Assembly: GCA_030641665.1 (NCBI GenBank)
Contig: DAOWHA010000038.1
Span: 23,857-87,856 of the forward strand
DNA: 64,000 nucleotides
Source of the DNA: a bacterium
GTDB lineage: Bacteria; Patescibacteriota; Patescibacteriia; JAACEG01
Direction: 5' to 3'
Shown: piece after piece, positions 10,416 to 60,124 of the stretch
How the letters are laid out: every line of letters begins with the position of its first letter
Position numbering within the stretch: position 1 is the stretch's first letter
Program-made: the position numbers and the translations under genes
The notes under the pieces: generated by a model
The model's input: only the letters and a program-made list of their open reading frames with translations
Databases searched by the model: none
What the model was told of the DNA's origin: nothing

Positions 10416-13400
10416 ATGAAAAATAGACTGATAAAGGGGGGAAAGAAAGTTTTGCAATGTTTTTTAATTTTGTTAGTAATTTTTCCGCTTAATTTAATGA
10501 TAACGCCATCGGCATCGGCAAGCGAGTTGCCGCCGCAGCCGCAAGCAGGCGAGGTTATTATAAATGAAATTATGCCCGACCCTTCTGTTGTTTCCGATAG
10601 TAACGGAGAATGGTTTGAGGTATATAATAACACCGATCATCAAGTTAATTTAATTAATTGTATTATTAAAGACGATGGCTCTGATTTACATACTATTAAT
10701 TTAGATTTAATTATTGATTCTAATGATTATGCGGTTTTAACAAAAAATAGCACTTCTACTGAAAATGGTGGCATTATATCTAATTATACATATACAGGAA
10801 TAACTTTAGCTAACGAAGAAGATGAGTTAATTTTAATTTGCAACGATACAGAAATAGATAGAGTAGAATATAATAAAGATAGCGGGTGGGTTATTAAAGT
10901 AGGAGAATCAATGATTTTGAGTGATTTTAATTTTGATAATAATATTACGGCTAATTGGTGTTTATCAACTTCGTCTTATGGAGATGGCGATTTAGGAACA
11001 CCTGGAATTACTAATGACCAATGTGAATATAATCCTGTTTGCGGGGATGAAATTTTAGAGGAAAACGAAAAATGCGATGATGGGAATAATCAAAACGGCG
11101 ACGGGTGCAGTTCAGATTGCCAGATTGAATCAATTTATGGTTATAAATTTAATGATTTAAATAAAGACGGGATAATGGGCGAGGGCGAGCCGATGCTTGG
11201 CGGTTGGGTGATTGAATTATATGATAATGCCAGTTCAACAATTCCGACAACAACAATCACAACAAGCATTGCAAACTCAACTTTAGGTTTTTACTCTTTC
11301 CAGAATTTAGAAGCAGGGGGTTATGTTATTAAAGAAGTTCAGCAGGATGGCTGGCTACAGACAACCCCGACAACTTCAACAACTACAATAAAGTTAGAAA
11401 GTCCAACGGCGACTACTACTGTAAATTTCGGCAATTGGGAATATAAAACTATTTCAGGGTATAAATATTATGATTCTGACAGAGATGGCGTAATGGGCGG
11501 AGGCGAAATCGGAATTAGCGGTTGGACAATCACGCTTACAAATTCCAGCACAACAGCCACAACAACCACTGACACAGAGGGTTATTATGAATTTAATAAT
11601 TTAGATATAGGAGATTATACAATTACAGAAATAATGCTGGATAATTGGCATAGAACAGATTTATTCGCCAGCAGCACTCCGACAACAACGCCGATTGAAT
11701 ATCATATTGAATATTCAGCAACAACTACTTCAACCTCAACTATCAATTTCGGAAACTGGCAGACTGAAATTTACGGCTATAAATTTAATGATTTAGATAA
11801 AAACGGCGAATTTGATGACGGAGAGGAAAAAATGGCTGGCTGGGAGATTGAATTATATAATGCCGCTAACGCAACTTCAAGTATAGATAAAACTACCACT
11901 GACGCAGAAGGAAATTATATTTTCAAAGGACATCCTTTTGGCGATTATTGGGTAAAAGAATTTCAGCAAGACGGCTGGATGCAGACTAATTTAGCGTCAA
12001 CAACAGCAACCACGACAATATCAACAGCAACTATAACAGCGGAAGTTAATTTTGGCAACTGGGAGTATAAAATAATTTCAGGATATAAATATAATGATTT
12101 GGATAGAGATGGAGAATGGGATATTAGTGAATCAGGCATTGGCGATTGGATGATTAAATTATATGATAACGCAAGCTCAACTAATCCAATTTTAATAAAT
12201 TCGACAGCAACCGACACGGCGACAACTTCAACAACAACATTAGGCTGCTATGAATTTAATGAATTAGAGCCTGGAGTTTATATGATTACTGAAGTTATGC
12301 GGGAGAATTGGATGACTGGCGTTGAAAGCGCTCCGACAACAACCCCGATTGAACATAATATTATAATTACAGCGACAAGCACAACGCCGACAAGCACTGC
12401 GGATATAAATTTTTATAATTGGCAATATGATTGCGTAGATAATGATGACGACGGTTATTATAGCAATGAAAGCGATATTGAATGCGGAGAGAAAGATTGT
12501 GATGACAATAATGCCGATATAAATCCATTGGCGAAAGAGATTTGCGGGAATAGCATTGATGAAAATTGCGACGGCAAAATTGAAAGCTGCGGAGGAGGCG
12601 GAGGTCACTCTAATTTTTTAACAATTCATTCTGAAAAATTAGTTGAAACAAAATCTAAAATAGAAGATGAAACAGAATTTGCGACAGAGACAATTACTTG
12701 GCACACGAATAAACCTGCCACCAGCAGAGTAGTTTACGGAACGCTGTCTGTTGCAGATATTGGCGAATGGCCTAATTTAGGCTATCAATATTCTACAACA
12801 GAAGACCTAAATAAAATAACATTCCACGAAGTTGTTATTAGCGGTCTTTTGCCAAACACTACATATTATTTCAGGACAATTTCCGCCGCGTCTCCAGCAA
12901 TATATGGCAAAGAACTTTTTTTCACCACTCCTCAATTATCAGAGCCGCAGGAAATAGAAGACGAGCAAGAAGATGAACCAGAAGATGACAAAGGCGAAAT
13001 TGAAGAAGAAGGCGAAAAAGGCGAAGACGAAGCAGGAGATTCAGTTGAAGGCGCGGACGAAAGCTCGCAAGAAAAAACAGACGGCGGCGGAATTATCGGA
13101 GAAGGAGCGCAAGCCGCGGCAGTAGTTGTCTTAGGCGAAAAATTAGCGTTAGTTGATGATTTGCCAGATGACATATTAGATGAGGATAGCGAAAAGGACG
13201 AAGCAGAAGAAGATGAAAAAGAGCAGGGAATAGTAGGCGGCGAAAAGATTATCGCGACCACAAGCGCGGATTCCGAAGATGGCGGCTATGATTGCTGGAG
13301 TGAATGGTGGTGGCTGATAATTTTGCTTCTGCTTATAATCGCTTATTTCGCTTATGAAAATTATCGGATTAAAGAAGAGAGCAGAGAATCGGAAGATATT

Positions 13401-13439
13401 AAAACAAGCCCGGACAGCGGCAAAAAAGATAATGAATAA
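10416..13439 (+). CDS. Large secreted multidomain surface protein (lamin-tail domain, Cys-rich repeat, SdrD-B-like repeats, Fn3-like module, acidic tail, C-terminal TM)
   Basis: Signal peptide (ASASE). LTD-like NEIMPDPS...GEWFEVYN. Cys-rich repeat CGDEILEENEKCDDGNNQNGDGCSSDC. About five repeats of YGYKFNDL(D/N)KDG...GW.IELYD...GYY.F. Fn3-like TNKPATSRVVYG...TYYFRTIS. E/D-rich tail then a hydrophobic anchor. Confidence 0.7.
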   Translation: MKNRLIKGGKKVLQCFLILLVIFPLNLMITPSASASELPPQPQAGEVIINEIMPDPSVVSDSNGEWFEVYNNTDHQVNLINCIIKDDGSDLHTINLDLIIDSNDYAVLTKNSTSTENGGIISNYTYTGITLANEEDELILICNDTEIDRVEYNKDSGWVIKVGESMILSDFNFDNNITANWCLSTSSYGDGDLGTPGITNDQCEYNPVCGDEILEENEKCDDGNNQNGDGCSSDCQIESIYGYKFNDLNKDGIMGEGEPMLGGWVIELYDNASSTIPTTTITTSIANSTLGFYSFQNLEAGGYVIKEVQQDGWLQTTPTTSTTTIKLESPTATTTVNFGNWEYKTISGYKYYDSDRDGVMGGGEIGISGWTITLTNSSTTATTTTDTEGYYEFNNLDIGDYTITEIMLDNWHRTDLFASSTPTTTPIEYHIEYSATTTSTSTINFGNWQTEIYGYKFNDLDKNGEFDDGEEKMAGWEIELYNAANATSSIDKTTTDAEGNYIFKGHPFGDYWVKEFQQDGWMQTNLASTTATTTISTATITAEVNFGNWEYKIISGYKYNDLDRDGEWDISESGIGDWMIKLYDNASSTNPILINSTATDTATTSTTTLGCYEFNELEPGVYMITEVMRENWMTGVESAPTTTPIEHNIIITATSTTPTSTADINFYNWQYDCVDNDDDGYYSNESDIECGEKDCDDNNADINPLAKEICGNSIDENCDGKIESCGGGGGHSNFLTIHSEKLVETKSKIEDETEFATETITWHTNKPATSRVVYGTLSVADIGEWPNLGYQYSTTEDLNKITFHEVVISGLLPNTTYYFRTISAASPAIYGKELFFTTPQLSEPQEIEDEQEDEPEDDKGEIEEEGEKGEDEAGDSVEGADESSQEKTDGGGIIGEGAQAAAVVVLGEKLALVDDLPDDILDEDSEKDEAEEDEKEQGIVGGEKIIATTSADSEDGGYDCWSEWWWLIILLLLIIAYFAYENYRIKEESRESEDIKTSPDSGKKDNE

Positions 13440-13445
13440 TAATAC

Positions 13446-13520
13446 TGTCTTTGCGAGGAGGCGATAGCCTACGAAGCCACACCTAACGGGTGGTCACCCG
13501 TTAGGGTGACAATCTTGTTA
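13446..13520. mobile_element. MITE-like repeat family A, truncated copy A3
   Basis: Left TIR plus hairpin module (CGGGTGGTCACCCG), the same arrangement as copy A1. Confidence 0.6.
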
Positions 13521-13644
13521 ACAGGCAGAAGAGTCGTATTGTTAAAATAGAGCAATCTAACCTGTGGATAATTTTAAATATTTTATTAAAAAACAGATAT
13601 TTAATGTTTTTAAAATAGTGATAAAGACCAATAGGCACAGGGGC

Positions 13645-13672
13645 TTGACATATTTTTTTAATATGTTATAGT
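13645..13672 (+). promoter_or_regulatory. Sigma70-like promoter (TTGACA-16-TATAGT) upstream of the tandem hairpin repeat locus
   Basis: cTTGACAtatttttttaatatgtTATAGTg read directly. Confidence 0.4.
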
Positions 13673-13723
13673 GATATTAAGATTGAGAGAGGAATAGTTG
13701 GATATTTAAAAGAGAATAAAAAA

Positions 13724-13995
13724 GTGAGAGTGGGAAATATAGTTTTAAAAAAGATTTGAAATTATGTTTCCCAATCTCACACAAAATTCTCAACAAAACA
13801 AAAAAACAAAATCTCCAACACAATAAACAATTCCTCTCTCAACCAAACTCTTTATATGAAGTGAGAGTGGGAAATATAGTTTTAAAAAAGATTTGAAATT
13901 ATGTTTCCCATTCCCACACAAAAAATTCTAACTCAAAAAAATCCACAACAAACAAACAAACAAACAAACTATCAATCCCCAACCTTTTATATCTA
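13724..13995 (+). ncRNA. Candidate structured small RNA: two tandem ~137-bp units, each with a 14-bp-stem hairpin
   Basis: GTGAGAGTGGGAAA-N31-TTTCCCAATCTCAC at 13724-13780, repeated at 13861-13918. Lies between a promoter and an intrinsic terminator. No ORF covers it. Confidence 0.35.
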
Positions 13996-14011
13996 TTTAT
14001 AAATTTTTCAA

Positions 14012-14035
14012 GCAGGATCTCATCCTGTTTTTTTA
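14012..14035 (+). terminator. Rho-independent terminator
   Basis: CAGGATCTCATCCTG hairpin followed by TTTTTTT. Confidence 0.55.
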
Positions 14036-14167
14036 ATTTTAATTTTAATTTCAAAATAAAATTATTAACAAAATATACGATCGTGAAAAAACGCTATAAT
14101 TAAATTTTTTAGTAAAATGCGCGCTTGTCCGCCTCGGGAGGAATCGCACAATTAGTTAAGAATTTTT

Positions 14168-14249: not shown

Positions 14250-15509
14250 ATGAAACAGATAGCGGATTTGCATATCCATTCAAAATATTCCCGCGCTTGC
14301 TCAAAGCAGTTGGAACTGGAAAATATTGAAAGCGCCTGCAGAATAAAGGGCGTTGATATCGTCGCTACCGGAGATTTTACGCACCCGGCTTGGTTTGGAG
14401 ATATAAGCAGCAAATTAGAAGAGATAGAAAATTCAGGCTTATATAGATTAAAATCCGCGCCAGACAGTAAAATTAAATTTGTCCTTTCTACGGAAGTAGC
14501 GCTGATCTATAAAGCGTTAGACAAAGTGAGGCGGCTGCATATTATGGTTATGGCGCCGAATCTGAAATTAGCAAAAGAGTTTAATGATCATTTAAGCAAG
14601 AGCGGTTATAACATAAAATCGGACGGACGACCGATTTTAGGAATGAGCGCGCAAAAATTGTGCGAGATCTGTTTTAATATCAGTTCAGATTTTGTAATAT
14701 TTCCGGCCCATATCTGGACGCCATGGTTTGCGGTTTTCGGATCTAAATCAGGTTTTGATTCTTTGGAAGAATGTTTTGGAAAGTGGACGGACAAAATTCA
14801 CGCCATTGAAACCGGGCTGTCAAGCGATCCTGAAATGAATTGGGCGCTTTCAGGCTTGGACGATATTGTCCTGCTGTCTAATTCTGACGCGCACTCTTTA
14901 ATAAATATCGCGCGCGAAGCCAATATTTTTGACCTGCAAGATGTTTCTTATGGCGGAATTCGCGAAGCGATGAACAAAAAAAATCGCGGTAAAAATCTGC
15001 TTTTATCAACTATTGAATTTTATCCGGAAGAGGGGATGTATCATTTTGACGGGCATCGCGCTTGTAATGTCAGTTTTACGCCAGAAGAGACAAAAAAATA
15101 TAGCGGTATCTGCCCTGTCTGTAAAAGACCGCTTACAATTGGCGTGATGAGCAGAGTTAAAGAATTAGCGGACCGTGAATTCGGTTTTAAGCCGAAAAAC
15201 GCCGCGCCATTTGTTAAATTAGTGGAGCTGGATAAAATAATCGCTGAAACGCTGAATATAAAAAGCCGCTCCTCTAAAGCTGTGCTGGCTGAATACAATA
15301 ATTTAATCAAACTTGGCGGCAATGAGTTGAATATTCTGCTTAATCTGAATTATGATGAACTAAAAAAAATCGCTTCTGAGAAAATTACAGAAGCGATAAA
15401 AAGAGTGAGGGAGGGCAATCTGATTATTGAGCCAGGCTTTGACGGAGAATACGGCAAAGTTAAAATTTTCAGCGAAAAAGAAAAAACAAGGCAGAAAAAA
15501 CTGTTTTAA
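14250..15509 (+). CDS. PHP-domain protein, endonuclease Q (EndoQ)-like
   Basis: N-terminal DLHIHSKYSRACS...VATGDFTHPAW PHP pattern plus a C-terminal CPVC zinc ribbon, about 420 aa. This matches my memory of the EndoQ/TIGR00375 architecture. Confidence 0.55.
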   Translation: MKQIADLHIHSKYSRACSKQLELENIESACRIKGVDIVATGDFTHPAWFGDISSKLEEIENSGLYRLKSAPDSKIKFVLSTEVALIYKALDKVRRLHIMVMAPNLKLAKEFNDHLSKSGYNIKSDGRPILGMSAQKLCEICFNISSDFVIFPAHIWTPWFAVFGSKSGFDSLEECFGKWTDKIHAIETGLSSDPEMNWALSGLDDIVLLSNSDAHSLINIAREANIFDLQDVSYGGIREAMNKKNRGKNLLLSTIEFYPEEGMYHFDGHRACNVSFTPEETKKYSGICPVCKRPLTIGVMSRVKELADREFGFKPKNAAPFVKLVELDKIIAETLNIKSRSSKAVLAEYNNLIKLGGNELNILLNLNYDELKKIASEKITEAIKRVREGNLIIEPGFDGEYGKVKIFSEKEKTRQKKLF

Positions 15510-15636
15510 TAGAATGTGGTTAAAAAAATTTTTAGCATTTTGTACGATCGTACATTTTGCTAAAAATTTTTAAAATAACAAAAAGTTGACGAAACTGTGC
15601 GACCGCACAGTTTCGTCAACTTTTTAGATTATAGGA

Positions 15637-16852: not shown

Positions 16853-16925
16853 TATATTTATTCATTCAAGGGCTTTTTATTTTCAATAAATTAAAAACAA
16901 ATCTGTCGCCCTGAATTCCACTATT

Positions 16926-17070
16926 GTCACCCTGAATTTATTTCAGGGTCTGTGCTTGTTATTTACTATATTATGTTTAAGAAAAATAAAGTAAAAAGTC
17001 AGGATTTTATTTATCTAATCATAATTTAGCGATAAGTAATAACAGATCCTGAAATAAATTCAGGATGACA
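16926..17070. mobile_element. MITE-like repeat family B, copy B1
   Basis: TIRs TGTCACCCTGAATTTATTTCAGGGTCTG / CAGATCCTGAAATAAATTCAGGATGACA; internal AATCATAATTTAGCGA is shared with the copy at 49605. Confidence 0.6.
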
Positions 17071-51843: not shown

Positions 51844-51923
51844 TGGTCGGTCGCAGCGGATTTGAACCGCCGATATCCACGATCGACGATCATGGCGCCT
51901 TAACCTGACTTGGCTAACGACCG
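51844..51923 (-). tRNA. tRNA (CCA encoded). The anticodon loop looks non-canonical and is centred on GTC, so possibly Asp
   Basis: Reverse complement gives acceptor CGGTCGT/GCGACCG, T-arm GGCGG-TTCAAAT-CCGCT, D-arm with GG, and anticodon region CCATGA-TCGTCGA-TCGTGG. Confidence 0.55.
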
Positions 51924-51945: not shown

Positions 51946-52021
51946 TGGTTGGGGTGGGGGGATTTGAACCTCCGACTATTCGGTTATACCCAAATACTCT
52001 ACCATGCTGAGTTACACCCCG
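51946..52021 (-). tRNA. tRNA (76 nt, CCA encoded) with C1xA72 mismatch and an unusual 6-nt or 8-nt anticodon loop; identity unresolved
   Basis: Reverse complement: CGGGGTG...D-arm ACTC-AGCATGGTA-GAGT...TTTGG-GTATAA-CCGAA...GGAGG-TTCAAAT-CCCCC-CACCCCA-A-CCA. Confidence 0.5.
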
Positions 52022-53057: not shown

Positions 53058-54323
53058 ATGCCAAATAAAAAACAGAATGATTTAAGCAAAGAGATTAAGC
53101 GTTTAATGGTCGGAGTTTTAATTGTTAGTTTATTTGCGGGAATTATCGCCGGCGGAATTTCAGGTATTATTTTTAGTCATTATGGTTCAGATTATATTCG
53201 CAAAATCGCATTTTCTAATAAAAATGAGAAAAAAATTGAAAAAAAATTAGCAAGAAATATTAAAGTTGAACAGTTGCAAGAAGAATCAGCAACTATAAGC
53301 GCTGTTAAAAAAGTGAGTCCAGCTGTCGTGAGCATTATAATTTCCAAAGATTTAAGCAAGTATTATAATTCTACCGGTCCTGACATATTTCCTTTTGACG
53401 ATTTTTTTGAGTTCGAATTTCCTCCGTTAATATCTCCTAAATTCGGCGAAAAACAGAAAGTCGGGAGCGGAACAGGTTTTATAGTTGACGCGGAAAAAGG
53501 ATTGATTTTAACAAATAAGCATGTGGTTTCAGATCCGGACGCGGAATATTCAGTAATCATTAACAGCGGTAATCGGTACGGCGCCGAAGTTTTAGCGCTG
53601 GATCCGATAAATGATTTAGCCGTTATTAAAATTCAGGCGGATGAAAAATTATCAGAAGCCGAGTTTGGCAATTCTGATAATTTGCAGATAGGGCAGTCAG
53701 CCATAGCCATCGGCTTTGCCTTAGGGGAATATCAGAATAGCGTTACTAAAGGAATTATTTCAGGCATTGGAAGAAGCGTTATAGCTGGAGATTCCAGCGG
53801 CAAAACTGAACCTCTGGAAGATATAATTCAGACCGACGCAGCTGTTAATCCGGGAAATTCAGGCGGACCCTTAATTGATTTGCGCGGCAAAGTTATCGGA
53901 GTTAATACCGCAATTGATCGCGAGGGGCAGTCCGTCAGTTTTGCCATTCCGTCCAATGAAGCAAAATTTGTTTTTGAGAGCGTCCGAGAGCATAATAAAA
54001 TTATAAGGGCGTTTTTGGGCGTTAGATATATTCTGCTTAATCAAGCTATTGCCGCGGCTAATAATTTAGATGTTGATTATGGCGCTTTAATTATAAGGGG
54101 AGAAAGCGCTGCGGATTTAGCTATTATTCCAGGAAGTCCCGCCGATAAAGCAGGTCTGGTTGAGAACGATATTATTTTAGAAATTGAAAACGAAAAAATC
54201 AGCCAAAAGCATAATTTAGCGAAAGCTATTGGCAGGCGAAATCCAGGCGAAGAAGTTGAATTAAAAATTTTACATAAAGGAGAGGAAAAAATTATTAAGG
54301 TTGTTTTGGAAGAAAGGGAATGA
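53058..54323 (+). CDS. HtrA/DegP-family serine protease with PDZ domain
   Basis: N-terminal TM; His region LTNKHVV; GNSGGPLIDLRGKVIGVNTAI catalytic Ser motif; C-terminal PDZ. Confidence 0.85.
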   Translation: MPNKKQNDLSKEIKRLMVGVLIVSLFAGIIAGGISGIIFSHYGSDYIRKIAFSNKNEKKIEKKLARNIKVEQLQEESATISAVKKVSPAVVSIIISKDLSKYYNSTGPDIFPFDDFFEFEFPPLISPKFGEKQKVGSGTGFIVDAEKGLILTNKHVVSDPDAEYSVIINSGNRYGAEVLALDPINDLAVIKIQADEKLSEAEFGNSDNLQIGQSAIAIGFALGEYQNSVTKGIISGIGRSVIAGDSSGKTEPLEDIIQTDAAVNPGNSGGPLIDLRGKVIGVNTAIDREGQSVSFAIPSNEAKFVFESVREHNKIIRAFLGVRYILLNQAIAAANNLDVDYGALIIRGESAADLAIIPGSPADKAGLVENDIILEIENEKISQKHNLAKAIGRRNPGEEVELKILHKGEEKIIKVVLEERE

Positions 54324-57167: not shown

Positions 57168-58163
57168 ATGGATCATCACAAATTAACTTTGGAGCAAGTA
57201 GCAAGAGTAGAGAAAGGCATTGGTATTGATGCTTTTGTACGACTAAGTAATCAGTTGCCGGAAATCGGTGTTAAATACGGCGACAAGTTGCTTGGGCAAG
57301 TTGAGGCGATTCTCAATATGGTTGATCCCATGGATCAGGAAAAGTTGCTTGCCGGCGAAGCGTCAATCGAAATTATCGAGATTATTAAATCTTTGTTCGA
57401 TAACACTAGTCGCGTTATTCCGCCTCGCGGATTTAAGTTGCCGGTAACTGATGAAAATAGGAAGTTTTATCTTGATCAGCATGTTGTTGATCATCAAGAC
57501 ACACTGAAACGTTTAACAGATTATCTCCATGGATATAAATATCCGTCTTTATCCGAGTTTCAGGATAAATGCGAATCCGTCAAGGAGAAATCATTGCAGT
57601 ATCCGCGAATCGGAGAAAACGCGTTTAATCGCTGCTATCTTCCTCTTCCGATACCGCATATTCCGGAATTGTCTGACTTAACAAAACTGGGAAAAGTTAT
57701 AGAAGATTTGCTTGAAGGAGTGGGACGGGCTTATAAGAATGAGTTTCCCGATCGTACTTTCTATAATCACAGACAAGGAACTTTGGCAGGCGAGGTTTCA
57801 ATCGTTTCCGGCACAAGACATGGCAAATTACTTGAAGCTGCTTCCAAAGCGCCGCAATCAGGCATATTTCTCCCTGATTCTTTGCAGGGATATTCAATTC
57901 ACGCTGACAGGAAAATTATTTCATTGTTTCCCAACTTTGTTTCACTTAGCGGTATTGAATATATTTTTGCAATGATTGCTTATCCTGACATTCTGGCGCG
58001 TGACTACAACACGCCCGGACTGGATATGGCCGCTCTTTTCTGGCGGTCCGCCGACTATTCGCTTCTCTTCGAGGCTAGCGACGACGAGCTCAGCTTCGGC
58101 CGCACGGGCTACTTGGCCGTTGCCTACGACTTCTATTCTGGCGGTCTCTTGTTTCTCGGGTAG
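57168..58163 (+). CDS. DGR target protein; C-terminal variable region in a putative C-type-lectin/FGE-like fold
   Basis: Its last 126 nt form the VR. The C-terminal WRSADYS...GGLLFLG resembles the CRSANR...IGFRLV ends of CLec/FGE-type DGR targets. The 3' end is locally GC-rich. Confidence 0.65.
   Translation: MDHHKLTLEQVARVEKGIGIDAFVRLSNQLPEIGVKYGDKLLGQVEAILNMVDPMDQEKLLAGEASIEIIEIIKSLFDNTSRVIPPRGFKLPVTDENRKFYLDQHVVDHQDTLKRLTDYLHGYKYPSLSEFQDKCESVKEKSLQYPRIGENAFNRCYLPLPIPHIPELSDLTKLGKVIEDLLEGVGRAYKNEFPDRTFYNHRQGTLAGEVSIVSGTRHGKLLEAASKAPQSGIFLPDSLQGYSIHADRKIISLFPNFVSLSGIEYIFAMIAYPDILARDYNTPGLDMAALFWRSADYSLLFEASDDELSFGRTGYLAVAYDFYSGGLLFLG
58037..58162 (+). repeat. DGR variable repeat (VR)
   Basis: 126 bp paired with 58531-58656; 18 mismatches, all at positions that are A in the other copy. 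Confidence 0.85.
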
Positions 58164-58244
58164 TGCAGGGATTTGGTCTTTTTGTTCCTTGGTTTTTGGA
58201 TCAAAAATTTTGGTTCTTGGTTTTTGGTCGAATTTTTAAAATCA

Positions 58245-58280
58245 CGAGGCGTGACAATGTTGCGCCTCGTTTTTCTTTTT
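58245..58280 (+). terminator. Rho-independent terminator after the DGR target gene
   Basis: CGAGGCGTGACAATGTTGCGCCTCG hairpin followed by TTTTTCTTTTT. Confidence 0.55.
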
Positions 58281-58530
58281 AAAATATGATAAAATAAATT
58301 TGGGAGTAGGCTAATGCAACCGGTCTCAAGGGGTAGCGGTTCGCCGAAACCCTAAATTTCTACCAACGCATCAGAATTTTGCGGTTCACTTTGGATTGCA
58401 AAAGAGTATGTGAAAATTTAGGCACTACTTGTCTTTTTCTGGCGTTCAACTTTTAAGAGCCAAATAAAATACAGGGGGAATATTACTTTTCAAGCTATTT
58501 TCCCAGTGGTTAAAGATGGAAAAAGACGAA

Positions 58531-58656
58531 TTTTCTGGCAGTCCGCCGACTATTCGCTTAACTTCAAGGCTAACGACGACAAGCTCAACTTCGACAACAC
58601 GGACAACTTGGCCAATGCCAACGACAACTATTCTAGCGGTCTCTTGTTTCTCGGGT
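58531..58656 (+). repeat. DGR template repeat (TR)
   Basis: Intergenic copy rich in AAC codons (NFKANDDKLNFDNTDNLANANDNY in frame); it carries adenine at every VR/TR mismatch site. Confidence 0.85.
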
Positions 58657-58720
58657 TGTGTCTAAATGTAATAAAGGCCTCATTATAGAGGTCTTTATTC
58701 GTTATTATCTTTGAGGTAAT

Positions 58721-59071
58721 TTAGTTAAGCGAGCGTTGCCAGCCGCCTAACATTCTGCCAATTTCTTGAATCTGCTTTTGTAATTCGAGATATTTTTTAC
58801 TATCAATAATATTCAAGTCTTTTAGCAGTCTAATAAACAGTTTTAGGGTATCAAATTTAGCATTAGCTTTCTTAATTAAAGCCAACTTTTCATCTCTGTA
58901 AGCGCAACTGGTCTCCAACAATAGTTCAAGCGTAACAATAATATACATTTCGCACTTAGCCCCTAAAGTATGTTTATCTTTTTTAGGAAATAAAGCAGAG
59001 TATTTATAAAAAAGTTTATACAGTTCATATAATTTTTTAATTATTGGAATATCTGTATTTTTATGATCCAT
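58721..59071 (-). CDS. Avd-like accessory variability determinant (four-helix-bundle protein, TIGR02436-like)
   Basis: 116-aa helical protein (YELYKLFYKYSALFPKKDKHTLGAKCEMYIIVTLELLLETS...GGW) resembling four-helix-bundle/Avd proteins found beside DGR reverse transcriptases. Opposite strand, overlapping the RT start by 9 nt. Confidence 0.6.
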   Translation of the reverse strand: MDHKNTDIPIIKKLYELYKLFYKYSALFPKKDKHTLGAKCEMYIIVTLELLLETSCAYRDEKLALIKKANAKFDTLKLFIRLLKDLNIIDSKKYLELQKQIQEIGRMLGGWQRSLN

Positions 59072-60124
59072 AATATTTATGATAAATTAATTAGTTTGGA
59101 AAATATTTTAATTTGCTGGAATGAATTCAAAAAAGGCAAATCAAAAAAATATGACATGATGGAATTTGAGCGTTATTTGGAAGATAATATTTTTGAGCTT
59201 CATAACGAATTAGTTAATCAAACTTATCAGCACTGCCCTTATGTAAAATTCCATATCTATGATCCAAAGCATAGAATAATCCATAAAGCCGAAGTTAAAG
59301 ACAGAATAGTTCATCACATTGTTTTTAAGGAATTATATAGAATTTTTAATCCAACTTTTATATATCATTCGTATTCGTCCAGAAATAATAAGGGTACTCA
59401 TTTGGCTGTTAGGAATTTATCCCGTACATTACGGAAAGTTAGCAATAACTACACAAAGCAGGTTTATGTATTGAAATGCGATATTAAAAAATTTTTTCAT
59501 AGCGTATCTCACCAAAAACTTTTTGAAATAATAAAAAATAAGATTAACGACCATAAATTTTTGTGGCTAGTATGGCAAATTATATCAAGTTTTTTCATAA
59601 TTGCGGAAAACTTTCCGCAGAGAGAGTTAAAGAAAAATTTTTTAGAAAAAAGAGGTTTACCAATAGGTAATTTAACCTCACAAATTTTTGCTAATATATT
59701 TTTGGATAAATTCGACTGGTTCATTAAAAAGCAATTAAGAATAAAATATTATTTTAGATATGCTGACGATTTTGTGATTATTAATTCAAACCCGGAATAT
59801 CTTAATAATATTGTTAACTTAATAGAGGAATTTTTAAATACAAAACTTAATTTAAAATTACATCCTCAGAAAACAGAAATTAGAAAATTCGAACAGGGTG
59901 TTGATTTTCTCGGATATGTTATTTTACCTCATTATATAACACTTCGGACAAAAACCAAAAAGAGGGTGTTTAAAAAAATTAAAGATAATAAAGAAAAATT
60001 GGATCAAAATTTGATATCTAAAAATTCTTTTAATCAATCGCTTCAGTCGTATTACGGAATATTTATGCGCTGTAATAGCTATAAATTAAAACGAGAACTT
60101 GATAAGTTTATTAAAGATTTTTAG
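59063..60124 (+). CDS. DGR reverse transcriptase
   Basis: RT motifs: domain 4 PIGNLTSQ (DGR-type [ILV]GxxxSQ), domain 5 RYADDFVII (YxDD); 353 aa; no maturase or endonuclease domain; adjacent to TR/VR. Confidence 0.8.
   Translation: MIHNIYDKLISLENILICWNEFKKGKSKKYDMMEFERYLEDNIFELHNELVNQTYQHCPYVKFHIYDPKHRIIHKAEVKDRIVHHIVFKELYRIFNPTFIYHSYSSRNNKGTHLAVRNLSRTLRKVSNNYTKQVYVLKCDIKKFFHSVSHQKLFEIIKNKINDHKFLWLVWQIISSFFIIAENFPQRELKKNFLEKRGLPIGNLTSQIFANIFLDKFDWFIKKQLRIKYYFRYADDFVIINSNPEYLNNIVNLIEEFLNTKLNLKLHPQKTEIRKFEQGVDFLGYVILPHYITLRTKTKKRVFKKIKDNKEKLDQNLISKNSFNQSLQSYYGIFMRCNSYKLKRELDKFIKDF

What the first reader, a model, noticed from the sequence alone, without database searches (positions are those of the whole stretch)
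13645..14035. Promoter-to-terminator noncoding unit containing two tandem 137-bp repeats, each a long hairpin
A TTGACA-16-TATAGT promoter at 13645-13672 is followed by two near-identical tandem units (13724-13860 and 13861-13995). Each contains GTGAGAGTGGGAAA-31 nt-TTTCCCAATCTCAC. An outer inverted pair (AGAGAGGAAT...ATTCCTCTCT) brackets unit 1. The unit ends at the CAGGATCTCATCCTG-T7 intrinsic terminator (14012-14035). No ORF of at least 60 aa covers it. It is a candidate sRNA (about 390 nt) of unknown class. With only two repeats and no spacer logic, it is not CRISPR-like.
Basis: seen in the sequence. Interest (0 to 1): 0.5.

Follow-up and report, generated by a model that had tools for sequence, protein, structure and literature searches.

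The report
Clade-specific long-hairpin small RNA gene
This is a real, conserved, non-coding RNA gene with its own promoter and terminator, found only in a small group of Parcubacteria (ultra-small CPR bacteria); it folds into one or two long hairpins, matches no known RNA family, and its function is unknown.

Summary
A near-consensus promoter (13645-13672), two tandem repeats, each with a 57-nt hairpin, and an intrinsic terminator (14010-14037) are all present, and no ORF is conserved.

The anatomy needs one correction. The basic module is a roughly 160-nt extended hairpin (13683-13842). A purine-rich, C-free 5' leader pairs with three blocks of the G-free "tail", and a 26-bp apical helix caps the structure. 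In this genome the second unit is a truncated duplicate. It has lost its own leader, so about 70 nt of G-free A/C-rich RNA is predicted to be unpaired.

Relatives were found only in closely related Parcubacteria MAGs, always at this one locus, between a surface-protein gene and an EndoQ-like gene. They carry one or two modules.

The promoter (28/28) and leader (44/44) are invariant, while four-fold sites of the neighbouring gene are only 70-73% identical. Two G·U pairs conserved in all six hairpins point to a plus-strand RNA.

It has no Rfam family and is not a CRISPR array, TIGR array, type III antitoxin, MITE, retron or recognisable 6S RNA.

My best reading is a new lineage-specific structured sRNA that acts through its hairpin module, probably by binding a protein or being processed by a nuclease. 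Interest is moderate to low.

The parts
13562..13644 (+). Conserved upstream (regulatory) block. Its 5' edge is a perfect DnaA-box 9-mer (TTATCCACA on the minus strand, 13563-13571). It also contains an AAAAACA-N9-TGTTTTT inverted repeat.
   Evidence: About 85-90% identical in variants A-E, and conservation starts exactly at CTGTGGATAA while the sequence further upstream is unrelated. The DnaA-box match is; single boxes are not enriched in the window. The regulatory role is inferred.
13645..13672 (+). Sigma-70-type promoter TTGACA-16-(TG)TTATAGT.
   Evidence: Matches 11/12 with an extended -10. Identical 28/28 in variants A, B, C and E, and 27/28 in D.
13679..14037 (+). Inferred transcript, about 355-360 nt.
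   Evidence: The start is inferred from the -10 spacing and from the fact that the only variable bases lie between the -10 and AAGATTGAGAG. The end is the terminator. There are no expression data.
13683..13842 (+). Module 1: a 160-nt extended hairpin. P1 is 13683-13695 / 13830-13842. P2 is 13697-13707 / 13809-13819. P3 is 13712-13717 / 13786-13791. P4 is 13724-13749 / 13755-13780, with loop 13750-13754. The 5' half is C-free and the 3' half is G-free. The internal loops on the 3' side are A/C-rich.
   Evidence: MFE and centroid folds, pairing probabilities, and the same consensus fold in 4 variants. Paired blocks are invariant while the A/C loops vary in length.
13861..13917 (+). Module 2 apical hairpin (P4'), a duplicate of P4. 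In this genome its own leader has been deleted.
   Evidence: 57/59 identical to 13722-13780. Relatives L003 and L015 keep a 47-nt leader 2 whose GATTGATAGTTGGTTG pairs with CAACCAACTATCAATC.
13918..13985 (+). G-free A/C-rich tail of module 2, predicted single-stranded in this genome. It contains (CAAA)5 and ACUAUCAAUC, a 10-mer kept in all four variants in which this region is present (A, B, D, E).
   Evidence: Unpaired probability is at least 0.9 throughout. It lies inside the 108-nt G-free run 13904-14011.
14010..14037 (+). Intrinsic terminator: a stem around CAGGAT-CTC-ATCCTG followed by T7.
   Evidence: The stem is retained with different loops in variants B, D and E.

Best explanation
This is an independently transcribed, non-coding, structured small RNA gene, restricted as far as can be seen to a narrow clade of Parcubacteria.

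What is shown directly, or inferred directly from sequence:
- A strong sigma-70 promoter drives a transcript of about 355 nt that ends at an intrinsic terminator.
- The functional module is a roughly 160-nt rod-like hairpin. A purine-rich, C-free leader pairs with three blocks of a G-free tail (P1-P3), capped by a 26-bp helix (P4) that carries conserved G·U wobbles.
- The module has been tandemly duplicated and then variously trimmed by deletion or recombination. Related strains therefore carry one or two modules.
- In this genome module 2 has lost its leader, which exposes about 70 nt of G-free A/C-rich single strand.

What is inferred about mechanism:
- The invariant nucleotides are the helix-forming blocks and the whole leader. 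The single-stranded A/C loops drift freely in length and sequence.
- I therefore think the RNA most likely works in trans through its folded hairpin module. It would be a ligand, decoy or scaffold for a protein, or a substrate of a double-strand-specific nuclease such as RNase III. A classical seed-pairing antisense sRNA seems less likely.
- Module copy number would then set the dosage of binding sites.

My probabilities: about 0.8 that it is a genuine functional ncRNA gene; about 0.4 that it acts through its structure (protein binding or processing); about 0.3 that it acts by base-pairing. The confidence given for this entry (0.4) is for the full statement including the structure-based mechanism.
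For: - Promoter and terminator.
- Fold: z = -11.8 in the window, -12.5 in L003 and -7.2 in L013. The consensus fold is the same in 4 variants.
- Strand: G19·U39 and U23·G35 are kept in 6/6 hairpins, and a third wobble in 3/6. These become A·C mismatches on the minus strand, whose fold is weaker against its shuffles (z = -5.5). The T-run follows the terminator stem only on the plus strand.
- Selection: four-fold degenerate sites of the adjacent EndoQ gene are 73% (A-B) and 70% (A-D) identical. The promoter is 28/28 and the leader 44/44 (A-B), or 27/28 and 43/44 (A-D).
- Paired tail blocks (ATTCTC, ATCTCCAAC, TCCTCTCTCAACC) are invariant, while the intervening A/C loops change length.
- Non-coding: ORFs stop after 11 codons in A and C, and use different frames in B-h1, B-h2 and D.
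- Single locus: it always lies between the surface-protein gene and the EndoQ-like gene. There are no other copies in the window or in other loci.
- Variable module number.
- Against anti-SD seed pairing: genes in this window essentially lack Shine-Dalgarno sequences.
Against: - There are no expression data, so the transcript is inferred from sequence signals only.
- Covariation support is weak because the homologues are too close. There is one compensatory pair (G-C to A-U) in P4 and none in P1-P3, and 86 of 500 shuffles reach the observed score. The extended hairpin therefore rests on thermodynamics and on the pattern of conservation.
- Several P4 substitutions break pairs (A·C at positions 4, 8 and 9).
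- No partner protein is identifiable in the neighbourhood.
- High local conservation could partly reflect recent recombination of the locus between strains.
- Rapid gain and loss of whole modules shows that much of the RNA is dispensable.
- Variant E may be an assembly collapse (967-nt contig).
Confidence: 0.4

Rival explanations
1. It is a classical trans-acting base-pairing sRNA. The structured 5' hairpins give stability, and the G-free unstructured 3' tail just upstream of the terminator (or the invariant purine-rich leader) is the seed that pairs with target mRNAs.
For: - Most promoter-to-terminator bacterial sRNAs work this way (general knowledge).
- The tail 13918-13985 is predicted unpaired.
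- ACUAUCAAUC and CCUUUAUA in the tail are kept in variants A, B, D and E.
- The leader is invariant beyond what pairing needs.
- One 20/21 antisense match links tail 13923-13943 to the HtrA-like mRNA at 53400-53420.
Against: - The single-stranded parts are the least conserved and change length between strains.
- In B and C the conserved tail 10-mer is locked in a 16-bp helix with leader 2.
- The htrA match is lost in B and the segment is deleted in D.
- No other complementarity was found in 64 kb.
- C-rich or anti-SD targeting is implausible because the genes here lack SD sequences.
Confidence: 0.3
2. It is a functional analogue of 6S RNA. A roughly 160-nt rod (closing stem P1-P2, loosely paired A-rich centre around P3, long terminal stem P4) binds RNA polymerase holoenzyme as an open-promoter mimic.
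For: - The size and overall rod architecture of module 1 fit.
- It has a strong constitutive-looking promoter.
- It is present once per genome.
- Full-text searches found no paper describing 6S RNA or small RNAs in Patescibacteria/Parcubacteria.
Against: - The Rfam 6S model gives no match even at E <= 10 or 5 in three variants.
- The central region is very asymmetric (4 nt against 17-25 nt) and its 3' strand is variable. As I recall, in 6S that strand carries conserved -10-like contacts.
- The distribution is extremely narrow, whereas 6S RNA is widespread across bacteria.
- The element is absent upstream of EndoQ in relatives with 86% (L006) and 67-68% EndoQ identity.
Confidence: 0.08
3. It is a selfish or neutral repeat, either a MITE-like foldback element or a decaying tandem duplication, with no function of its own. 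The promoter and terminator would be fortuitous.
For: - It has foldback architecture with terminal inverted repeats.
- It shows rapid indel and recombination dynamics and variable unit number.
- The intergenic region is an insertion hot spot.
Against: - There is only one locus per genome, with no dispersed copies.
- The promoter and leader are invariant against 27-30% neutral divergence.
- The G·U wobbles are strand-specific.
- The true MITE-like family in this window (11 copies) is unrelated.
Confidence: 0.08
4. It is a DNA-level cis element, for example a DnaA-associated or nucleoid/replication site next to recR-ybaB-dnaB, in which the hairpins act as cruciforms or protein-binding palindromes.
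For: - A perfect DnaA box marks the edge of the conserved block in all five variants.
- The neighbouring genes are recR, ybaB and dnaB.
Against: - Cumulative GC skew rises monotonically across the whole window, so this is not an origin.
- There is only one DnaA box, and boxes are not enriched in the window.
- The conserved G·U positions would be mismatches in DNA hairpins.
- The consensus promoter plus terminator frame the element as a transcription unit.
Confidence: 0.05

Closest known systems
Generic Rho-independent bacterial sRNA genes (for example Firmicute sRNAs such as RsaE/RoxS)
   Same: It is a stand-alone intergenic unit with a sigma-70 promoter, stem-loops, an unstructured C-containing G-poor stretch and an intrinsic terminator. 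It has no conserved ORF.
   Different: It has no sequence or covariance-model match. It is much longer and rod-like. The conserved parts are helices rather than C-rich loops. The host genes lack the SD sequences that RsaE-type C-rich motifs target.
6S RNA (Rfam RF00013)
   Same: A 150-190-nt single long irregular hairpin formed by pairing of the 5' and 3' parts, strongly transcribed, and single-copy.
   Different: There is no hit to the Rfam model. The central 'bubble' is asymmetric and partly paired (P3). The distribution is narrow, and the tandem copy number varies.
Type III toxin-antitoxin antitoxin arrays (ToxI/CptI)
   Same: The order promoter, tandem direct repeats, intrinsic terminator, downstream gene.
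   Different: The repeats are 137-190 nt long hairpins, 1-2 copies. From memory, ToxI-type arrays have several copies of about 36 nt. The downstream gene is a housekeeping EndoQ-like nuclease with its own promoter, is separated by 1.5 kb in L013, and is widespread without the repeats.
TIGR stem-loop arrays (TIGR-Tas, PMC12045711)
   Same: Tandem stem-loop RNA units found in CPR bacteria.
   Different: There are no box C / box D motifs (the 3' halves contain no G at all). There are no variable spacer pairs. No Nop-domain Tas protein was found among the 40 ORFs of the window that were scanned.
MITEs / foldback repeats (Correia, RUP, REP-like)
   Same: A long imperfect inverted repeat of about 160 nt that would fold if transcribed.
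   Different: It has a single locus per genome, its own promoter and terminator, and strand-specific G·U pairs. The genuine MITE-like family of this genome is a different sequence.
Protein-sponge RNAs with repeated modules (CsrB/RsmZ, CrcZ)
   Same: Repeated modules whose number varies between strains, and A/C-rich single-stranded tracts like the CA-rich motifs of CrcZ.
   Different: There are no GGA loops. The A/C tracts have no fixed motif or periodicity ((CAAA)n in A, (AAC)n in B) and are the least conserved part. There is no Rfam match.

Membership tests
Any Rfam 15 family | Covariance-model score at or above the family gathering threshold | tested here: not met
   The whole window at gathering thresholds gives only two tRNAs. 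The element at E <= 10 or 5 in three variants gives only sub-threshold generic hairpin (miRNA-precursor) matches of 13-26 bits over the element itself.
6S RNA | Match to RF00013, with a large two-sided central bubble between closing and terminal stems | tested here: not met
   No RF00013 match at E <= 10. The central region is 4 nt against 17-25 nt with a 6-bp helix inside it.
6S RNA | Binds sigma-70 holoenzyme and templates pRNA | not testable with these tools
   This needs biochemistry.
CRISPR array | At least 3 short (23-50 nt) identical repeats separated by unique spacers of similar length, often with cas genes nearby | tested here: not met
   There are two 137-nt units in tandem with no spacers. 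No cas domain was found in the Pfam scans.
TIGR array | Repeated units with box C/D-like motifs and dual spacers, adjacent to a Nop-domain Tas protein (PMC12045711) | tested here: not met
   The 3' halves are G-free, so no CUGA or UGAUGA motif is possible there. No Nop domain was found in the window ORFs scanned.
Type III TA antitoxin RNA | Short tandem repeats followed by a terminator and a ToxN/AbiEii-like toxin gene in one operon | tested here: not met
   The downstream gene is EndoQ-like (MJ0043_C family) with its own promoter. A 1.5-kb insertion separates the two in L013. EndoQ homologues commonly lack the repeats.
MITE / dispersed foldback repeat | Multiple dispersed copies per genome | tested here: not met
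   There is only this locus in the window and in the two GTDB MAGs hit. Caveat: the MAGs are incomplete and the search pattern was strict.
Retron msr-msd | ncRNA with flanking inverted repeats immediately next to a retron reverse transcriptase | tested here: not met
   The adjacent genes are a surface protein and EndoQ. The only RT in the window (59063-60124) belongs to a DGR 45 kb away that has its own TR/VR.
DGR template/variable repeat pair | Two repeats differing mainly at adenines of the template, with the variable repeat inside a coding gene | tested here: not met
   Both repeats are non-coding, and their differences are not adenine-specific (for example A->T and T->C in the hairpin).
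Small-protein gene | An ORF conserved in frame and length among homologues | tested here: not met
   The ORF starting at the base of P4 has 11 codons in A and C, 60 or 46 aa in different frames in B, and 63 aa in D. The ATG at 13764/13901 is ATA in B.
Stand-alone bacterial sRNA gene (generic kind) | Own promoter, own terminator, non-coding, conserved in relatives | tested here: met
Stand-alone bacterial sRNA gene (generic kind) | A discrete transcript is detected | not testable with these tools
   No transcriptome data are available here.

The most novel reading that the evidence does not exclude
The rod-like module is the CPR/Parcubacteria counterpart of a global protein-titrating RNA. It would be a 6S-like RNA-polymerase mimic, or a decoy for another core factor such as Rho (via the G-free, C-containing tails) or a dsRNA-binding enzyme. 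Its promoter would be wired to DnaA through the conserved upstream DnaA box. It would therefore couple replication status to global gene expression in organisms that lack most known regulators. Module copy number would tune the dose.
Probability: 0.1. Interest if true: 0.6.

Novelty: new member of a known kind. Interest (0 to 1): 0.35.

Why it matters
Non-coding RNA regulators are essentially uncharted in the Candidate Phyla Radiation. My full-text searches found no paper describing 6S RNA or sRNAs in Patescibacteria or Parcubacteria. This element is a clean, well-delimited candidate under measurable purifying selection. Its composition is unusual: the arms are strictly segregated into G-only and C-only halves, with G-free runs of 90-110 nt. 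Close strains also show module gain and loss.

If it is expressed, it would be an experimentally tractable entry point to RNA-based regulation in these reduced, symbiotic bacteria. Its known distribution is very narrow and no function can be assigned, so on present evidence it is one more lineage-specific sRNA candidate rather than a new principle.

Tried and rejected
1. Rfam at gathering and permissive thresholds on three variants gave nothing meaningful.
2. Two DNA-pattern scans of JGI metagenome contigs, one strict and one purine/pyrimidine-degenerate, gave 0 hits.
3. Viral contigs (3 patterns) and blastn against phage and plasmid collections gave 0 hits. The element is therefore not recognisably from a mobile element.
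4. Synteny walking through EndoQ homologues at 86% and 67-68% identity found different neighbours and no element.
5. I searched the protein database with translations of the element, to catch ORFs mis-called inside homologous elements. A six-frame concatenated query failed. A three-sequence profile found two entries, which gave variant E and another copy of B.
6. The small-protein hypothesis is rejected because frames are not conserved.
7. DGR, retron, TIGR, CRISPR and type III TA are all rejected (see the membership tests).
8. An origin of replication is rejected because GC skew is monotonic.
9. Anti-Shine-Dalgarno, C-rich seed regulation is unlikely because the genes here have no SD.
10. The target search within the window gave one 20/21 match to the htrA-like gene, which is not conserved in relatives and is likely chance. 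Searches for leader-like or leader-2-like target sites found only the element itself.
11. A minus-strand transcript is rejected. The G·U pairs become mismatches, there is no T-run after the stem on that strand, and only weak promoter-like sites exist there.

Full report
**Context.** The window comes from an AT-rich (about 36% GC) Parcubacteria/Patescibacteria (CPR) genome. The closest database proteins are named Candidatus Parcubacteria. GC skew is positive across the whole window. The finding lies in the 810-nt gap between a 1007-aa surface protein gene with LTD, SdrD_B and SpaA domains (10416-13439, +) and an EndoQ-like PHP nuclease gene (14250-15509, +). These are followed on the minus strand by recR, ybaB and dnaB.

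**Observation.**
- The promoter is TTGACA-16-TATAGT with an extended -10 TG at 13645-13672. It matches 11/12 and is the best site in the region.
- A direct repeat of period 137 aligns 13722-13830 with 13859-13967 at 80% identity.
- Each unit has a 26-bp-arm hairpin, at 13724-13780 and 13861-13917.
- An outer inverted pair lies at 13683-13699 / 13826-13842.
- A terminator lies at 14010-14037.
- No ORF longer than 51 aa overlaps the element.
- The plus strand folds at -98.5 kcal/mol against -46.5 +/- 4.4 for shuffles, z = -11.8.
- The composition is striking. The two longest G-free runs of the 64 kb (13904-14011, 108 nt; 13767-13857, 91 nt) and the longest C-free run (13650-13769, 120 nt) all lie inside this element. 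The plus strand is otherwise G-enriched. Such runs are expected about 1e-6 to 1e-4 times per window.

**Anatomy, corrected.** The fold shows that unit 1 is not a 57-nt hairpin followed by a loose tail. It is a single 160-nt rod.
- The leader 13683-13723 pairs with three blocks of the tail. P1 is UUGAGAGAGGAAU / AUUCCUCUCUCAA. P2 is GUUGGA.UAUUU / AAAU.CUCCAAC. P3 is GAGAAU / AUUCUC.
- The rod is capped by the 26-bp helix P4.
- All G lie on the 5' side and all C on the 3' side, which excludes competing intra-arm structures.
- The 3'-side internal loops are pure A/C.
- Unit 2 in this genome has only the apical hairpin. Its tail (13918-13985) is predicted unpaired at p >= 0.9.
- Only the hairpin parts of the two units are near-identical (57/59). 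The tails are diverged.

**Relatives.** Homologues were reached in three ways: through the neighbouring EndoQ protein, through a purine/pyrimidine-degenerate pattern over GTDB genomes, and through mis-called ORFs inside the element. Five sequence variants exist, all in close Parcubacteria relatives and all at the same locus.

| Variant | Source | Layout |
|---|---|---|
| A | window and L002 | Module 1 complete; module 2 lacks its leader |
| B | L003, L004, L014, L017 | Two complete rods |
| C | L015 | Strain variant of B, truncated by the contig end |
| D | L013, MAG159 | One rod, a linker hairpin, only the 3' end of tail 2, then the terminator |
| E | L016 | Leader 1, one hairpin, tail 2 |

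- In B, unit 2 has its own 47-nt leader, whose GAUUGAUAGUUGGUUG pairs perfectly with CAACCAACUAUCAAUC in tail 2. The window copy therefore carries a deletion.
- In D, a 1.5-kb insertion separates the element from EndoQ.
- E is a recombinant, or possibly an assembly collapse of a 967-nt contig.
- The two-repeat layout is therefore lineage-variable. The constant parts are the upstream block, the promoter, leader 1, at least one P4 and, wherever the contig reaches that far (A, B, D, E), the end of tail 2 and the terminator.
- Nothing was found in JGI metagenome contigs, viral contigs (29, 91, 92), phage or plasmid collections (59, 60), or upstream of EndoQ in more distant relatives.
- A covariance model of P4 finds only the known copies in the window and in all fetched loci. 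The element is single-locus and not a dispersed repeat.

**Selection and strand.**
- Four-fold degenerate sites of the adjacent EndoQ gene are 73% (A-B) and 70% (A-D) identical.
- Against that, the promoter is 28/28 and the 44-nt leader 44/44 between A and B, and 27/28 and 43/44 between A and D.
- The paired tail blocks are invariant, whereas the A/C loops between them expand and contract: AACAAAACAAAAAAACAAA, then AACAAAAAAACAAAAAA, then AACAAAAA, with (AAC)n and (CAAA)n tracts.
- The only variable bases near the start lie between the -10 and AAGAUUGAGAG. This fits a transcription start at about 13679.
- In P4, G19·U39 and U23·G35 are kept in all six hairpins, and U15·G43 in three. On the minus strand these are A·C mismatches, and the minus-strand hairpins are correspondingly interrupted.
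- Together with the T-run, this fixes the plus strand as the RNA strand.
- Honest limit: covariation is weak. There is one compensatory G-C to A-U pair in P4 and none in P1-P3, and 86 of 500 shuffles do as well, because the homologues are too similar. The structure rests on thermodynamics and on the block pattern of conservation.

**Not coding.** The ORF that starts at the base of P4 stops after 11 codons in A and C. It runs 60 and 46 aa in two different frames in B, and 63 aa in D. The internal ATG of the window is ATA in B. G-free sequence can only contain TAA stops, which explains the spurious ORFs.

**What it is not.**
- No Rfam family fits, including 6S, in three variants.
- It is not a CRISPR array.
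- It is not a TIGR array. The 3' halves lack G, so no box C/D motif is possible, and no Nop-domain protein was found among the ORFs scanned (PMC12045711).
- It is not a type III antitoxin array. EndoQ is a widespread housekeeping gene with its own promoter.
- It is not a retron or a DGR repeat. The only RT, at 59063-60124, belongs to a separate DGR with its own TR/VR.
- It is not an origin of replication, since the skew is monotonic.
- It is unrelated to the MITE-like family that has 11 copies in the window.

**How it probably works.**
- The invariant nucleotides are the helices and the entire 5' leader, including its unpaired A-runs. The single-stranded A/C tracts are the least constrained parts.
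- Whole modules are gained and lost between strains.
- The genes of this genome have essentially no Shine-Dalgarno sequences, so the usual C-rich, anti-SD seed mechanism has nothing to act on.
- No conserved complementarity to anything in the 64 kb was found. The single 20/21 match to the htrA-like mRNA is not conserved.
- I therefore favour, at about 0.4, a structure-based role. The rod would be a ligand or decoy for a protein, or a substrate for a dsRNA-specific nuclease, with module number setting the dose.
- A seed-pairing sRNA remains a serious rival at about 0.3. The seed would be the exposed tail with the conserved ACUAUCAAUC, or the leader.
- A 6S-like RNA-polymerase mimic is architecturally tempting but fails the only membership test available, and the distribution is too narrow (about 0.08).
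- A neutral foldback repeat (about 0.08) and a DNA-level site (about 0.05) are unlikely, given the selection signal, the single locus and the strand-specific wobbles.

**An extra lead.** The conserved block upstream of the promoter begins exactly at a perfect DnaA box (TTATCCACA, 13563-13571, minus strand) in all five variants, while the sequence further upstream is unrelated. A single box is not statistically remarkable in 64 kb, but its conservation suggests regulated transcription.

**Verdict.** This is a genuine, new, lineage-specific structured sRNA gene candidate in Parcubacteria, a new member of a known kind. Interest is moderate to low (0.35). The organisms are poorly explored and the RNA is unusually clean and oddly composed, but the distribution is very narrow and no function can yet be assigned.

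Noticed in passing
window 57168-60124: A complete diversity-generating retroelement. The target gene is 57168-58163 (331 aa, no Pfam hit) with a variable repeat at about 58030-58165. The template repeat at about 58536-58658 differs from it almost only at template adenines. There is a small accessory ORF on the minus strand (58721-59071) and a reverse transcriptase at 59063-60124 (RVT_1, E = 7e-28).
   Followed up: partly
window 4688, 6033/6195, 13447, 20319/20494, 38839/38997, 51428/51552, 60598: A dispersed intergenic repeat family with core GTCTTTGCGAGGAG has 11 copies against 0.3 expected. Most occur as inverted pairs 125-175 bp apart, which looks MITE- or REP-like. One half-copy (13447-13545) sits between the surface-protein stop codon and the sRNA upstream block and is absent from relative L003.
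   Followed up: partly
window 13563-13571 (minus strand): A perfect DnaA box TTATCCACA lies about 110 nt upstream of the inferred RNA start. It is conserved in all five variants and marks the exact 5' boundary of the conserved block.
   Followed up: partly
whole window (42 gene starts): Almost no gene has a Shine-Dalgarno motif. Upstream regions are A/T-only, and several carry a TATAAT-like hexamer just before the ATG. This suggests SD-independent or leaderless initiation in this organism.
   Followed up: partly
window 14085-14150; L013 916-945 and 1944-1970: A conserved GC-rich island with an ACGATCGT palindrome (ACGATCGTGAAAAAACGC ... GCGCGCTTGTCCGCC) lies upstream of the EndoQ promoter. In L013 the motif TTTAGCAAAACGCGCGATCGTGAAA is duplicated on both sides of a 1-kb insertion carrying a 238-aa ORF with no Pfam hit.
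   Followed up: no
L003 4690-4830 (also L014, L016, L017): A long foldback insertion of about 150 nt (GACTTCCTCACTTTTTG ... AAAAAGTGAAGAAGTC) lies immediately after the sRNA terminator. It is absent from the window, so this intergenic region is an insertion hot spot.
   Followed up: no
window 15580-15625 and 16925-17070: A perfect 22-bp palindrome lies between the convergent EndoQ and recR genes and is probably a bidirectional terminator. A 66-nt-arm imperfect inverted repeat, with adjacent TTGAAAA tandem repeats, lies next to the dnaB start.
   Followed up: no
window 51946-52021 (minus strand): Rfam recognises a tRNA here (42 bits), but ARAGORN reports an undetermined two-base anticodon. It sits next to tRNA-Asp (51844-51923).
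   Followed up: no
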